Part shown: one piece after another, positions 51,796-57,976 of the stretch
Layout of the letters: the number at the start of each line of letters is the position of its first letter
Numbering within the stretch: the stretch's first letter is position 1
Source of the DNA: an uncultured Methanolobus sp.
GTDB taxonomy: Archaea; Halobacteriota; Methanosarcinia; Methanosarcinales; Methanosarcinaceae
Assembly: GCA_963675495.1 (NCBI GenBank)
Contig: OY776215.1
Coordinates: forward strand, 288,001-352,000
Direction: 5' to 3'
Length of the DNA: 64,000 bases
Translations under genes and position numbers: made by a program
The notes under the pieces: generated by a model
What the model was told of the DNA's origin: nothing
Database searches by the model: none
The model's input: only the letters and a program-made list of their open reading frames with translations

Positions 51796-54700
51796 TTAAC
51801 TCCGTTTCCTGTATACCATATATGCACCTGCGAGAACGATAGATATTCCCCCCATAATCTGCATGATGGCAATAAAACCATTATCATCTGTCTTTTCAGG
51901 AAGAACATAAGCTGCAACAACATCTGTATCTTCTATGGATTTCAGGCTATCTTCTATCAAAATCTCTGTTGCTTTGCTTTCAGATCCAATCGCAAACGGT
52001 GAAAAGCCTGGTGTCTGGCTTTCGAAGTACACATATTCATCATCTTCTTTTGTCACATAGGTAGAAAGAATATTCCATTTATCATCTGAATACCTGTACA
52101 ACTTTACTGTCTCTGCTCCAATATTGTTCTTATTCAACCATGCTTTTTCTACTTTGAAATCGATGAGCAGGTCTTCAACATTATCCGGACTAACAAAACC
52201 AGTCTTACCAACCCAGATATTCATCTGCTGGTAAACTTCCCCGGGTGCATCTAGCTCTGCAAACGATGACCTGTTGCTAAGAATTTCAATGGTTGCCTGT
52301 ATCTTACCAGAATTTTTCAAAGAATCAAATTGAATTGATGATATAGCATTGCCCTCTTCCTTAAACTCGTAATTGATATGGGATCCTGAATTAATGAAGA
52401 TGCTCTGCACCTCTTTTACAAGAATATTCTCATAGGTCTCACCGGTAGCGCCACCCCCACCTCCTCCACCACCGGAAGAAGAAGTGGTAGAAACTGTTGT
52501 AATTGTATCAGGCAGTCCCTTTATGGAATAAGTTGGCTCATCAGCAGCATATTCATGCACGAACACATTTTTTATTTTTAGCATACCTGTCTGATAATGT
52601 GCTGTGAAATGTGACAAACGAAGCGTTCCAGATGTATTTTCAAAGTTTCCAGGAATATTGAATTGCTCCACACCATCTGTACAAATTGCAACATTTGAAT
52701 CACCTAACTTGAATATCATTTGAGCCCAGGCATTTGATGGCATCAAGGAAACATTGGTGTTATGGTAAAGATCATCAGGGGTGCCTGATGTAAAATACCT
52801 CACAAGCGTATTGGTGGGGTCATTCGGTTGGTGTGAATCATAGTACCATCCATCAGTAGCAAGCTTATATGAACCGAAGTAACCGGTACCATAAAACAAA
52901 TCAGCATATGGATAACCACTAACTGGAGAGTAATAGTAATCGGCCTGAACAACTATGGGTCCATCAAAACTAACTGCAGACTCTAAAACATTACCTGTAT
53001 TTATTGGTCCAGCCAAAAGTGTAGACGTATAAATTCCATCTGATACAGAGTGGGAAGCAGCACCATACTCAGTCTTTATCCATTTAGTAGGATCAATGGA
53101 ATTACCTTCAAACATGTCGGCTAATAGCATGACACTGTCAATGTTTGATTCTGATGTTGCGTTCGGGTTTCCATAATACATTTTAATTGTAGAACCATTT
53201 GTTCCATCAATAACAGGAATTTTTACCCAAACTTTTGCAGAAACTGAATCGGTTTTATTTTCAATCCAATATGGTAGTAGAGCATCCCTCTCATCGACAA
53301 ACCTGAGATCATCAAAATCGGGTTGCATCTCTGACTCGTAAAGAATATCGAAATCCATCTGGTAATCTACTAAGGTTCCATCGGAAGAAGGAGATATACT
53401 GATGGTCTTGCTATTACTAAAATTTGAAGCGTTAATTGAATAGTAGTAATATAATGTATTAGCAGTATCCTGACTGGACAATACATTCAATATGCTGTAG
53501 GAATGCCAACCCCAACCTGATTTTTCCAGTTTAACATACCGCCAATGATTTTCAACAATGTACCATGGCGTGACAGAATGTCTGTAGGCATCTCCAGACC
53601 ATGAACATAACGTTGTCCACGTGGAACCATCATTTGACACTTTTATGTATTGAGTTGCTGCTGCAGTACCAAATGCAGCACGCAATTTGTATATATAGAC
53701 TGGTTCACCAAAATCTCTAATGACATAAGTAGACGCATCAGTTTTATAATATGCCTTGGTTCCGGTGCTGTTATCCAGTATATTCATCAAAGATCCTTCG
53801 TTAGGAGTTCTACTGGCAGTTATTGTACCGCCGGTGTCTAAACCTTCAATGAGATCAAATATAGAGAGAAGATCACTAACTGCTTCTTCATCTTCTGCAC
53901 ATTCGTAGATTATCGTATCACCATCATTCAGATCAAGCTTGAGTGTGACCACAGAGCTGTCAACATCATCACGATATTGAGGAATCTCATGCGTAAAATT
54001 TGAATCATAGTAGTAATGCAGATATTCGTATCCAGTAGCGTTAACAGGCAGGGTTCTGTAATTTAGTGTGTACTGGAAACCAGTTAGTGCACCATAAATA
54101 CCTGAATTGGAGATGACAATTGTCCTAACTGAACTTGGAGCAGCACAAATATTGGGTATTGAATAAGCAGGTTCATTCTTGGCATCTTTTTTCACATATA
54201 CCCAATCAGTCCATACCTTGGAATCATGATCAAAAATCGTATCCATTCTAGTATTAATTCCAATATTTAATGGTATTGAAGATACATTTTTCCCAGTAGA
54301 ATATACATCTCCATTTTCAAGAAAAGCGGATACATTTGAATCCCAAATAATATGCCAATTGTAGTATTCCTCCTGCAGTCCTGCGATATTACCCCAATGT
54401 TCACGTGTTGCTGATCCATTATTTTTTGCAAGAGTAGAATACACATCAGTTCTGTAATGATGAATAGCAGACATACTAGACAATGAAGGATTCATAAATC
54501 CAATATAACTATAACCCCATTCTTGATTTTTCAGACGTGATCTAAAAACAACTGAGTGAGGAATAGACGAATTAATCACCTGAGTAGAAAATACTTCAAC
54601 AGGGTTATCTAAATACAATACACCATTGGACACTGAATAAGTTCCAGTGCTTTGAAGATTTACAGACCATTTAGATGTATTTAGTGAAGTACCTTCAAAA

Positions 54701-55116
54701 TCATCAAAGAACTCAAATACTTCATCACCATTTGATTGAGGTTCAGCTTTAGAATTACCATAGTACATCTTCACAGTTGCACCGTTTGTCCCGTCGATCT
54801 CAGGTATCTTTACCCAGACCTTAGCAGAAATGAAATCTGTCTTAGATTCAATCCAGTATGGAAGTAGAGTTCCATTTTCACTAGCAAACCTCAGGTCATC
54901 AAAATCAGACTGCATTTCAGATTCATAGTTAATATCGAATATCATTTGATAATCTATTAGGGTTCCATCTGAAGATGGTGAAATATCAATCGTTTTAGAC
55001 TCGCTGAAATCAAACATCACATTCGTTTCATCTGCGCTTACTGGCGTAATCAAACCAAGCGTCAAGATTAAAAAAGCGATGCCTACAACACATATCCTGA
55101 AATGATCATTTTTCAT
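51796..55116 (-). CDS. Large cell-surface protein: 2x DUF2341 modules, discoidin-like insert, poly-Gly linker, PGF-pre-PGF domain, C-terminal TM
   Basis: FDDLRF...LPYWIE...VWVKIP...MYYGN twice; VSNDGSTW...RYVKL; SSSGGGGGGGG; YFESQTPGFSPFAIG; TM plus RKRS. Confidence 0.9.
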   Translation of the reverse strand: MKNDHFRICVVGIAFLILTLGLITPVSADETNVMFDFSESKTIDISPSSDGTLIDYQMIFDINYESEMQSDFDDLRFASENGTLLPYWIESKTDFISAKVWVKIPEIDGTNGATVKMYYGNSKAEPQSNGDEVFEFFDDFEGTSLNTSKWSVNLQSTGTYSVSNGVLYLDNPVEVFSTQVINSSIPHSVVFRSRLKNQEWGYSYIGFMNPSLSSMSAIHHYRTDVYSTLAKNNGSATREHWGNIAGLQEEYYNWHIIWDSNVSAFLENGDVYSTGKNVSSIPLNIGINTRMDTIFDHDSKVWTDWVYVKKDAKNEPAYSIPNICAAPSSVRTIVISNSGIYGALTGFQYTLNYRTLPVNATGYEYLHYYYDSNFTHEIPQYRDDVDSSVVTLKLDLNDGDTIIYECAEDEEAVSDLLSIFDLIEGLDTGGTITASRTPNEGSLMNILDNSTGTKAYYKTDASTYVIRDFGEPVYIYKLRAAFGTAAATQYIKVSNDGSTWTTLCSWSGDAYRHSVTPWYIVENHWRYVKLEKSGWGWHSYSILNVLSSQDTANTLYYYYSINASNFSNSKTISISPSSDGTLVDYQMDFDILYESEMQPDFDDLRFVDERDALLPYWIENKTDSVSAKVWVKIPVIDGTNGSTIKMYYGNPNATSESNIDSVMLLADMFEGNSIDPTKWIKTEYGAASHSVSDGIYTSTLLAGPINTGNVLESAVSFDGPIVVQADYYYSPVSGYPYADLFYGTGYFGSYKLATDGWYYDSHQPNDPTNTLVRYFTSGTPDDLYHNTNVSLMPSNAWAQMIFKLGDSNVAICTDGVEQFNIPGNFENTSGTLRLSHFTAHYQTGMLKIKNVFVHEYAADEPTYSIKGLPDTITTVSTTSSSGGGGGGGGATGETYENILVKEVQSIFINSGSHINYEFKEEGNAISSIQFDSLKNSGKIQATIEILSNRSSFAELDAPGEVYQQMNIWVGKTGFVSPDNVEDLLIDFKVEKAWLNKNNIGAETVKLYRYSDDKWNILSTYVTKEDDEYVYFESQTPGFSPFAIGSESKATEILIEDSLKSIEDTDVVAAYVLPEKTDDNGFIAIMQIMGGISIVLAGAYMVYRKRS

Positions 55117-55638: not shown

Positions 55639-55845
55639 ATGTTTAACAGAAATGAAACCACAGCACCTGTAGATGCCGGAGAGACATACGACGTAACAAT
55701 CGAAGACCTTGCAAGAGAAGGAGACGGAATTGCAAGAGTAAGCGGATTTGTAATCTTTGTGCCTGGAACATCAGTAGGCGACGAAGTAACCATCAAAGTA
55801 ACAAAAGTAATGAGAAAGTTCGCATTCGGCGAAGTTGCTGAATAA
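55639..55845 (+). CDS. Stand-alone TRAM domain RNA chaperone (cold-shock type)
   Basis: APVDAGETYDVTIEDLAREGDGIARVSGFVIFVPG..VGDEVTIKVTKV.RKFAFGE; close paralogue of 27490..27693. Confidence 0.95.
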   Translation: MFNRNETTAPVDAGETYDVTIEDLAREGDGIARVSGFVIFVPGTSVGDEVTIKVTKVMRKFAFGEVAE

Positions 55846-55863
55846 GCACACACTTTTTCATAC

Positions 55864-55885
55864 GAAGTATCAATGATGATACTTC
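55864..55885 (+). terminator. Hairpin plus T-run downstream of TRAM gene 2
   Basis: GAAGTATCA-atga-TGATACTTC followed by T7. Confidence 0.7.
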
Positions 55886-56062
55886 AATAATCTTTTTTTA
55901 TTTGTTTTGGATTCTTTTTTTTAAATAGTAATCAATTATTAGCGGTTAGTTTTGCGTATAAGGTTAAGACTGGTCACAAAATATATTAGCCAATCAAACT
56001 AGCACTAAACGCAAAATGAATTAAAAAATAGATATTAGAAAAGATGAATACTAGAATTCATC

Positions 56063-56401
56063 TCATCCAAGGAAGCCTTTACGTTCCAACCAGTTAACCT
56101 GAGGACGAGTGTACTTCCATATAACATCAGCTTTCGAATCCTGGATCTCCCAGGGAGTTGCTATAACGATATCGCCTTCGCGGACCCACATTCTTTTCTT
56201 CTTCGAACCGGGAATCCTTCCCATACGGACCACACCATCCATGCATTGCAACCTTACCCTGTTTGCTCCAAGAAGACTTGAAACTGTTGCCAGAACCTCG
56301 CCATTCTCTTTGCGTGGAGTCCTAACCCTGACAACTTCCTGTCCATCAGGATTTCCACCCCTTGCGTTACTTTTCCTTTTATTACTTCTATAATTAGCCA
56401 G
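56063..56401 (-). CDS. eif1a: Translation initiation factor aIF-1A (CTG start)
   Basis: ANYRSN...[72 protein letters not shown]; the ORF track shows only the last 62 aa; in-frame TGA four codons upstream of CTG; GAGGT 6 nt before CTG. Confidence 0.93.
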
Positions 56402-56683
56402 ATTAATACCTCAGTGCATGTAAAATGTTTTATTCCTTCCTTACTTAAACAAGATATTTACCAAAATGTTGTCTATGGATCTCACAACATTAGAAATATC
56501 CAATTTAAACAAAGCAAAATTTGACCTGTATCCGCCACTGTAAATAAAAATTTACAAGTGCATTATGGCCATTTGATTCTATTTGTATAGATATGCTCAA
56601 ACTATATAAGATGAATCGTATATTTAAGGGAGTTACCGAATCATACCCGGTAACGATCATCCCTTACTTTAATTAGTTAAAAA

Positions 56684-57976
56684 TTACTTTTTTCCAGAAA
56701 GCATTAACTTGACAAGTCCGGCAGCAATGTCCATTGAGGTATAATCCTCCTCAGCCATCTTCTCCACCCAATGCATATGTTTACCAAGGTGACCTGCATC
56801 AATGGTTTCTTTTACTTTCTTTGCAAGCATGTTAGCCTTGAAATCCTCAGCATCACTTCTTGTTGGGACCTTCTGGTTCTTTATTTTTGTCTTGGTGTAC
56901 TTCTGGATACTCTTGATCTTGTAGATCTCTTTTGGGGTCACAAAAGTGAATGCTATTCCCTGCCTTCCTGCACGTCCCGTCCTTCCAATTCTGTGGACAT
57001 AGGATTCCTCATCCTGTGGCATATCAAAATTGAAAACGACTTCGATATTCTCAACATCGATACCACGAGCTGCTACATCAGTTGCAACAAGGGTCTCTAT
57101 TTCCCCTTTCCTGAAACTTGCCATTACCTTCTCTCTTTGGGTTTGCTTCAGGTCACCGTGAATTGCGTCAGCAAGAAAACCTCTTGTTTTAAGGAGACTG
57201 ACCAGTTCATCCACCTTTTTCTTGGTATTACAAAATACAAGGGATGATTTCACATCATAAATGTCGATCATCCTGCAAAGGACATCTGGCTTCATATGAT
57301 GCTTCACTTCAAAGTAGGATTGCTCCATGTTAGGTGCTGTAACAACTTTATGGATTGTCTTGACATGCACCGGATTATTTTGAAATCTCTTAGCCAATTT
57401 CATTATTGGAGCAGGCATTGTAGCTGAGAAAAGGATGGTCTGCCTGTCATCTGGAACACTGCTGAGGATGCTTTCAATATCCTCCCTGAATCCCATATCA
57501 AGCATTTCATCAGCCTCATCAAGAACAACCATTTCCACGTTGTTGAGTTTTAGTGTCTTGCGCTCGATGTGATCCATAACCCTTCCAGGAGTTCCGATCA
57601 CTATATGAACACCACTTCTAAGAGCCTTTATCTGCCTGTCAATGTTCTGTCCACCATAAACTGGCAGTATCTTTGTCTTCTGATATTTTGCAAGCCTTGA
57701 CAACTCATCTGAAACCTGATTTGCCAGTTCTCTTGTAGGACATAGAACAAGTACCTGGGTATTTCTGCTGTTAGGTGTTACCATTTCCAGAGCTGGTATC
57801 CCAAATGAAGCAGTCTTACCTGTACCGGTCTGTGCCTGACCGATAACATCCTTGCCTTCAAGGATATGAGGAATAGATTGAACCTGTATGGGAGTAGGTT
57901 CCTCAAAACCTAGTTCCTCAATTGCTTTTTCGATATTTCTGGATAAATGAAGATCTTTAAACGTTGATGATTCCAT
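56684..57976 (-). CDS. DEAD-box RNA helicase (DeaD/CshA-like)
   Basis: Q motif GFEEPTPIQ, AQTGTGKT, PTRELA, TPGR, DEAD, SAT, ARGID, HRIGRTGRAG. Confidence 0.96.
   Translation of the reverse strand: MESSTFKDLHLSRNIEKAIEELGFEEPTPIQVQSIPHILEGKDVIGQAQTGTGKTASFGIPALEMVTPNSRNTQVLVLCPTRELANQVSDELSRLAKYQKTKILPVYGGQNIDRQIKALRSGVHIVIGTPGRVMDHIERKTLKLNNVEMVVLDEADEMLDMGFREDIESILSSVPDDRQTILFSATMPAPIMKLAKRFQNNPVHVKTIHKVVTAPNMEQSYFEVKHHMKPDVLCRMIDIYDVKSSLVFCNTKKKVDELVSLLKTRGFLADAIHGDLKQTQREKVMASFRKGEIETLVATDVAARGIDVENIEVVFNFDMPQDEESYVHRIGRTGRAGRQGIAFTFVTPKEIYKIKSIQKYTKTKIKNQKVPTRSDAEDFKANMLAKKVKETIDAGHLGKHMHWVEKMAEEDYTSMDIAAGLVKLMLSGKK

What the first reader, a model, noticed from the sequence alone, without database searches (positions are those of the whole stretch)
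56063..56415. aIF-1A must initiate at a non-canonical CTG codon (possible start-codon-stringency autoregulation)
Seen: the minus strand reads CAC TGA GGT ATT AAT CTG GCT AAT TAT AGA. An in-frame TGA lies four codons before CTG (56401), GAGGT sits 6 nt before it, and there is no in-frame ATG/GTG/TTG until codon 51, inside the OB fold. The resulting N-terminus (M)ANYRS matches what I recall for Methanosarcina aIF-1A paralogues. Established: bacterial infC uses AUU and eukaryotic eIF1 uses a poor AUG context for negative feedback. Inference: an analogous feedback loop may act on an archaeal initiation factor. Gene callers would truncate this gene.
Basis: partly seen in the sequence, partly recalled or inferred. 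Interest (0 to 1): 0.72.

Follow-up and report, generated by a model that had tools for sequence, protein, structure and literature searches.

The report
Conserved CTG start of aIF-1A gene
The only gene for translation initiation factor aIF-1A in this Methanolobus genome really does begin at a CTG codon, and the same odd start is kept across most methanogen families of its phylum, which suggests (without proving) that the cell controls the dose of this factor through a deliberately weak start codon.

Summary
On the minus strand the aIF-1A frame reads TGA GGT ATT AAT CTG; GAGGT lies 6 nt before the CTG (56401-56399), and the first in-frame ATG/GTG/TTG is codon 51. It is the only aIF-1A gene in the genome. 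An SD-based start caller that ranks seven start-like codons purely by Shine-Dalgarno pairing picked CTG in 141 of 170 distinct non-haloarchaeal aIF-1A loci of the phylum. It picked TTG in 15 and ATG in 8, or 10 after my re-reading. Methanimicrococcus has ATG at the same aligned position (ATG GCA AAT TAT), with a much weaker Shine-Dalgarno. Haloarchaea-like genes use ATG/GTG without an SD. NCBI already annotates MANYRS N-termini. A M. mazei Ribo-seq supplement lists a CTG-start eIF-1A gene with ribosome footprints. Six searches of the held library found no paper discussing it. The gene is not unique: rpoB'' and at least three other genes here also need near-cognate starts. The CTG start is near-certain. 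Autoregulation is plausible but untested, and its sign is unclear.

The parts
56063..56401 (-). aIF-1A coding sequence, 112 codons plus TGA stop. It is the sole aIF-1A gene of the genome.
   Evidence: translation. NF003085 174.4 bits against cut-off 92; TIGR00523 131.1 against 102.9; one PF01176 match in the whole genome.
56399..56401 (-). CTG start codon
   Evidence: It is conserved at the aligned position in 141 of 170 distinct non-haloarchaeal loci. ATG stands at the same position in Methanimicrococcus and Methanolapillus.
56408..56412 (-). Shine-Dalgarno core GAGGT, 6 nt before the CTG
   Evidence: Duplex with the 16S 3' end is -7.0 kcal/mol. GAGG is fixed at -11 to -8 in about 125 of 140 CTG loci.
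56411..56413 (-). In-frame TGA overlapping the SD. It closes the frame four codons before the CTG.
   Evidence: T at this place is found in only 56 of 140 CTG loci, so it is not specifically conserved.
56249..56251 (-). First in-frame canonical start (TTG, codon 51), inside the OB fold. It is not a plausible start.
   Evidence: 62-aa ORF. Searches show family matches beginning far upstream of it.
56603..56609 (-). TTATATA, a predicted TATA box about 200 nt before the CTG. It implies a long 5' leader. This is a prediction only.
   Evidence: the block ACGATTCA..TTATATA..TGAGC is the best-conserved upstream element in the alignment of 20 Methanolobus loci. No transcript-end data are available.

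Best explanation
This is a working aIF-1A gene translated from a leadered mRNA. The 30S subunit is placed by a Shine-Dalgarno (GAGGT) at a fixed distance, and initiation takes place on CUG (shown by comparison, not by protein data). The CUG is an old trait, kept by selection in the SD-using lineages of the phylum. A weak start codon is paired with a strong, fixed-spacing SD, and ATG appears only where the SD has decayed. The most likely purpose is dose control of aIF-1A. Because CUG recognition depends on the fidelity state of the pre-initiation complex (aIF1 together with aIF-1A and aIF2), aIF-1A synthesis would be coupled to that state, giving a homeostatic loop. The loop, and its sign, are inference.
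For: The start must lie within about 11 codons. The family profile matches from residue 8 and a TGA lies 4 codons before the CTG. CTG stands at the aligned position in 30 of 30 orthologous loci and in 21 of 26 further paralogue and order loci, the other 5 having TTG. An SD-duplex caller that treats ATG, GTG, TTG, CTG, ATT, ATC and ATA alike picks CTG in 141 of 170 distinct non-haloarchaeal loci. In 5 of 140 CTG loci a stop codon stands directly before the CTG. Codons after the CTG vary at third positions (GCT/GCA/GCG, AAT/AAC, TAT/TAC), as coding sequence does. Methanimicrococcus and Methanolapillus carry ATG at the same position (ATG GCA AAT TAT). SD duplex energy has a median of -9.5 kcal/mol for 140 CTG loci, -8.3 for 14 TTG loci and -4.6 for 10 ATG loci. 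The start-codon state changed at least 18 times on the tree, yet CTG holds 140 of 178 tips. CTG outnumbers TTG ten to one although both work with the same SD. In M. mazei the CTG-start eIF-1A gene MM_RS17915 has RIBO_baseMean 1018.84 and RNA_baseMean 102.43, so it is translated. In P. abyssi, aIF-1A reinforces the aIF1-induced dynamic state of the complex (PMC6237735 passages).
Against: There is no N-terminal peptide or start-site profiling. No test of regulation was possible. aIF1, not aIF-1A, is the factor shown to reject non-canonical codons. Without aIF1, aIF-1A stabilises the initiator tRNA, so the sign of any feedback is open. The Ribo/RNA ratio of the M. mazei CTG gene (about 10) is not far below that of its paralogue (about 13) or of ribosomal proteins L4 and L5 (about 15 and 19), so CUG here is not a strong brake. 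Other genes of the same genome also need near-cognate starts (rpoB'', an ABC ATPase, an HPS fusion, LarA), so the trait is not special to an initiation factor. Related genomes are not independent samples. The ATG cases come from about five lineages only.
Confidence: 0.55

Rival explanations
1. The CTG is the true start but has no regulatory meaning. These archaea tolerate near-cognate start codons behind a strong SD. The aIF-1A case is simply the oldest such codon, held in place because codon and SD compensate each other, so either change alone would mis-set the level.
For: At least four other genes of this genome need ATT, ATC or ATA starts. The rpoB'' near-cognate start is kept in all 24 Methanolobus loci, while other families have GTG or ATG there. 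ATG variants of aIF-1A exist and carry weak SDs. The M. mazei CTG gene is translated about as well as its neighbours.
Against: A tenfold excess of CTG over TTG across many families, in AT-rich genomes where C-to-T change should be easy, is not expected if the two were equivalent (the mutation bias is inference). No other gene examined keeps its odd start beyond the genus (one gene tested).
Confidence: 0.35
2. Translation does not start at the CTG. It starts instead at the ATT two codons before, at the internal TTG (codon 51), or by read-through of the TGA from the ATG CAC upstream.
For: ATT is a table-11 start and gives a 114-aa ORF. ATG CAC TGA is in frame in the window.
Against: The ATT directly abuts the SD, with a duplex of -1.5 kcal/mol against -7.0 for the CTG, and it is GTT in most other families. 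The upstream ATG is absent in relatives. Codon 51 lies inside the conserved fold. In 5 loci a stop codon directly precedes the CTG.
Confidence: 0.04
3. The CTG reflects a sequencing error or a decaying gene.
For: None was found.
Against: The base is identical in contigs of 4 runs from 2 studies and in relatives. The frame is intact and it is the only aIF-1A gene in a genome rated 100% complete.
Confidence: 0.01

Closest known systems
infC (bacterial IF3) AUU start-codon autoregulation
   Same: An initiation-factor gene carries a conserved non-canonical start codon whose use depends on initiation fidelity (Butler 1987 as cited in PMC4705826).
   Different: The factor here is the IF1/eIF1A homologue, not the discriminating factor, which in archaea is aIF1. 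aIF1 in this genome starts with ATG. The codon is CUG, not AUU. No experiment exists.
eIF1 poor-context AUG and eIF5 uORF autoregulation in eukaryotes
   Same: The level of a fidelity factor feeds back on its own weak initiation site (PMC4705826 and PMC6237735 passages).
   Different: Those loops concern eIF1 and eIF5. I found no start-codon loop described for eIF1A or aIF1A. Here the context is an SD, not a Kozak sequence.
Other near-cognate start codons in this genome and in M. mazei (rpoB'', ABC ATPase, HPS fusion, LarA)
   Same: An SD at 5-6 nt is followed by ATT, ATC, ATA or CTG, with no canonical start before the conserved domain.
   Different: rpoB'' keeps its odd start only within the genus. 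The aIF-1A CTG is shared by most sampled families of the phylum.

Membership tests
aIF-1A / eIF-1A (PF01176, TIGR00523, NF003085) | S1-like OB-fold domain scoring above the curated cut-offs | tested here: met
   NF003085 174.4 bits (cut-off 92); TIGR00523 131.1 (cut-off 102.9). PF01176 69.5 bits (cut-off 30.2).
aIF-1A / eIF-1A (PF01176, TIGR00523, NF003085) | Intact full-length frame that serves as the genome's working copy | tested here: met
   There are no stops inside the 112 codons. It is the only match in a 100% complete one-contig genome.
Initiation-factor genes autoregulated through a weak start codon (infC type) | Non-canonical start codon conserved among relatives | tested here: met
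   CTG in 141 of 170 distinct loci. At least 18 state changes on the tree against 35-38 in the ten shuffles printed.
Initiation-factor genes autoregulated through a weak start codon (infC type) | The encoded factor itself discriminates against that codon | not testable with these tools
   Literature passages only. aIF1 rejects AUU. aIF-1A strengthens the aIF1 effect but stabilises the tRNA when alone.
Initiation-factor genes autoregulated through a weak start codon (infC type) | Replacing the codon by AUG abolishes the control | not testable with these tools
   Natural ATG variants exist in about five lineages, all with a weak SD. This fits dose compensation but is not a test of control.
SD-led (leadered) archaeal mRNA | Anti-SD complementarity at a suitable distance before the start | tested here: met
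   GAGGT lies 6 nt before the CTG. GAGG is fixed at -11 to -8 in about 125 of 140 loci. The 16S 3' end used for the duplex was recalled, not read from this genome.

The most novel reading that the evidence does not exclude
The CUG start of aIF-1A is the sensor of a start-codon-stringency circuit that dates back to the common ancestor of the SD-using Halobacteriota. aIF-1A output reports the fidelity state set by aIF1, aIF-1A and aIF2. The same state co-regulates a small set of near-cognate-initiated genes, including RNA polymerase subunit B''. This would be the first start-codon feedback described for the IF1/eIF1A family in any domain of life.
Probability: 0.15. Interest if true: 0.85.

Novelty: new variant of a known kind. 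Interest (0 to 1): 0.62.

Why it matters
aIF-1A is a universal, essential initiation factor. A weak start codon kept on its own gene across many methanogen families would be a natural entry point to how archaea set start-codon stringency and factor stoichiometry, and it can be tested in Methanosarcina genetics. On the practical side, callers limited to ATG/GTG/TTG mis-annotate this gene: database entries are extended upstream or begin at later codons. The same holds for several other genes in these genomes.

Tried and rejected
- **Rfam scan:** the scan of 55800-56800 gave only a chance-level miRNA match (E 0.68, 18 bits against a gathering score of 144).
- **Leader structure:** the consensus fold of the 185-nt leader of 11 Methanolobus loci was weak (-9.1) and showed no structure at the start.
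- **Upstream mini-ORF:** ATG CAC TGA is not conserved.
- **TGA in the SD:** the TGA overlapping the SD is not specifically kept (T in 56 of 140 loci).
- **First genome-wide count:** counting codons behind SD motifs was uninformative because SD-like words abound inside genes.
- **CTG-only scan:** the scan found 9 ORFs, of which only aIF-1A looked real. That does not hold for ATT, ATC or ATA.
- **Candidates that failed:** of the 11 candidates sent to Pfam, CbiG, MgtE, a bactofilin-like protein, a histidine kinase, an Ig-repeat protein and two proteins without a match did not require a near-cognate start.
- **Earlier findings of this scan:** look-ups by place and by sequence returned nothing.
- **Other phyla:** genomes outside the phylum could not be reached with the tools left.

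Full report
**Observation.** The minus strand reads ATG CAC TGA GGT ATT AAT CTG GCT AAT TAT AGA. The CTG is at 56401-56399, the in-frame TGA at 56413-56411 and GAGGT at 56412-56408. The frame runs 112 codons to the TGA at 56065-56063. The first in-frame ATG/GTG/TTG is the TTG at 56251, which is codon 51.

**Identity.** The product matches NCBIfam NF003085 (174.4 bits, cut-off 92, residues 8-111) and TIGR00523 (131.1 bits, cut-off 102.9). Best database hits are Methanolobus proteins. The genome (2.87 Mb, one contig, completeness 100) holds a single match to the protein and to PF01176, so this is its only aIF-1A gene. Initiation must therefore occur between the TGA and about residue 8. In that stretch only ATT and CTG are near-cognate codons.

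**Relatives in the genus and order.**
- In 41 genomes (the window's own, 24 of the same genus and 16 from 5 other families of the order), 39 had a match.
- All 30 loci fetched have CTG at the aligned position, preceded by GAGGT, GAGGA or GAGGTG.
- The codons after the CTG change at third positions (GCT/GCA/GCG, AAT/AAC, TAT/TAC), which is the signature of translated sequence.
- A further 26 loci (second paralogues of the genus and more members of the order) have CTG in 21 and TTG in 5, and never ATG (my count).

**The phylum.**
- All 151 genomes in an even draw of the phylum had a match.
- I fetched 40 loci from families f7-f32 and from other genera of f1. I added 15 loci from ten further genomes and 80 named GTDB loci.
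- A caller ranked ATG, GTG, TTG, CTG, ATT, ATC and ATA only by the duplex of the upstream 18 nt with the 16S 3' end. On 170 distinct non-haloarchaeal loci it gave CTG 141, TTG 15, ATG 8, ATT 2, ATA 2, ATC 1 and GTG 1.
- The two ATA calls (L120, L125) lie upstream of an ATG (directly before it in L125, eight codons before it in L120) that aligns with the ATG of their Methanimicrococcus relatives. I re-read them as ATG.
- Named CTG carriers include Methanolobus, Methanosarcina, Methanohalobium, Methanosalsum, Methanoperedens, ANME-2, Methanothrix/Methanocrinis, Methanocella, "Methanocellales archaeon" and Methanoculleus.
- The ten haloarchaea-like loci use ATG or GTG with no SD.

**Exceptions.** Methanimicrococcus and Methanolapillus, one Methanocellaceae locus and one Methanoperedens locus have ATG exactly where the others have CTG, for example ATG GCA AAT TAT against CTG GCT AAT TAT. 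This is direct positional evidence that the CTG is the start.

**Architecture.**
- In 140 CTG loci, GAGG sits at -11 to -8 in about 125, followed by T, then G or A, then TTAA-like bases.
- The consensus is GAGGT(G/A)TTAAN CTG. In several families it is GAGGTGAT NNN CTG.
- A stop codon lies directly before the CTG in 5 loci and three codons before it in 51.
- Median SD duplex energy is -9.5 kcal/mol for CTG (n=140), -8.3 for TTG (n=14) and -4.6 for ATG (n=10, range -7.1 to -1.5).
- So the strong codon occurs only with a decayed SD.
- On a FastTree of 178 distinct core sequences the start-codon state needs at least 18 changes, against 35-38 in the ten shuffles printed. The codon can change, yet CTG persists.

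**Public knowledge.**
- NCBI and UniRef hold 112-117-aa proteins starting MANYRS for Methanolobus and Methanosarcina. Other entries are extended upstream (P0004, P0070) or begin at a later GTG or ATG (P0039, P0085).
- In the supplement of the M. mazei Ribo-seq paper PMC11456600 I read passages of files 5 and 7 and the header of file 7. Gene MM_RS17915, which has no old locus tag, is "translation initiation factor eIF-1A", 117 codons, start codon CTG, beginning CTG GCT AAT TAT AGA AGT. Its RIBO_baseMean is 1018.84 and its RNA_baseMean 102.43.
- The paralogue MM_RS12115 (annotated with ATG) has 3270.8 and 247.0. That row is from file 5, and I assumed the same column order there.
- Ribosomal proteins L4 and L5 have 4154/274 and 1976/102. 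So the CTG gene is translated, at a footprint-to-RNA ratio of the same order.
- The main text of that paper never mentions an initiation factor.
- Six library searches found no paper that discusses a CTG start of aIF-1A.
- The 2020 review PMC7531240 has no occurrence of CUG, non-AUG or autoregulat.

**Not unique.**
- The same supplement lists rpoB'' of M. mazei with a CTG start.
- In the window's genome, rpoB'' has no ATG/GTG/TTG in the 36 codons printed after the upstream stop. It reads GAA GGT GCT ATC ATA GCG, and its Pfam domain begins at residue 19.
- All 24 Methanolobus loci keep ATC ATA (ATA ATA in one) at that place. Other families of the order have GTG or ATG one codon later.
- A codon-usage-filtered scan with a Pfam check adds three more genes. 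They are an ABC ATPase (TGAGGT ATTACA ATT; domain from residue 48, first canonical start at codon 61), an HPS/RraA fusion (ATC; domain from residue 5, canonical start at 43) and LarA (ATC or ATA; domain from residue 7, canonical start at 15).
- aIF1 itself starts with ATG.

**Mechanism.**
- Shown by comparison: the CTG is the start, and codon and SD co-vary.
- Inferred: selection keeps a weak codon for dose control.
- Further inferred: because CUG recognition should depend on the fidelity state of the complex, aIF-1A synthesis is coupled to that state.
- Passages of PMC6237735 say that aIF-1A stabilises the initiator tRNA when aIF1 is absent, but reinforces the aIF1-induced dynamic state when both are present. 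A negative loop is therefore conceivable, but its sign is open.
- The neutral alternative remains serious: a tolerated, compensated, frozen state.

**Limits.**
- No protein or transcript-end data were available for this organism.
- Relatives are not independent samples.
- The 16S 3' end used for the SD energies was recalled, not read from this genome.
- Family codes f1-f32 are unnamed, except where protein matches gave names.

Noticed in passing
G000:C1:1017076-1017110 (outside the window; locus L201): RNA polymerase subunit B'' has no ATG/GTG/TTG near its N-terminus. It most likely starts at ATA (or ATC) 5 nt after AAGGTG. All 24 Methanolobus loci examined keep this, while other families of the order have GTG or ATG one codon later.
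   Followed up: partly
G000:C1:1842199(-), 1422573(-), 1291291(+) (loci L195, L198, L200): An ABC ATPase with CBS domains, an HPS/RraA fusion and LarA each have Pfam domains that begin before the first canonical start codon. Each has ATT, ATC or ATA behind an SD. These look like further near-cognate starts in this genome.
   Followed up: partly
window 56560-56640 (-): A conserved block ACGATTCA..TTATATA..TGAGC about 200 nt before the CTG is probably the promoter, which would imply a leader of about 180 nt. Just upstream lies a conserved GC hairpin (CCGG..CCGG), probably the terminator of the helicase gene.
   Followed up: partly
window 55639-55845 (+): This 68-aa ORF closely resembles the M. 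mazei TRAM domain-containing protein MM_1355 printed in the supplement passage. It was not tested with a family search.
   Followed up: no
window 56684-57976 (-) and 51796-55116 (-): The upstream neighbour carries DEAD-box helicase motifs (VLDEADEM) in its translation. Downstream lies a 1106-aa protein with an internally duplicated N-terminal region and a C-terminal membrane anchor. Neither was examined.
   Followed up: no
loci L184, L185, L186 (haloarchaea-like genomes): The second aIF-1A paralogue of three haloarchaea-like genomes appears to start with GTG, while the first paralogue uses ATG. Neither has an SD.
   Followed up: no
loci L079, L081, L187 (families f18, f27): A paralogue type with the motif PKKWN has ATG, ATC or ATT three bases after GGAG(T/C)TG(A/G)T. 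This may be another non-canonical start series within the aIF-1A family.
   Followed up: no
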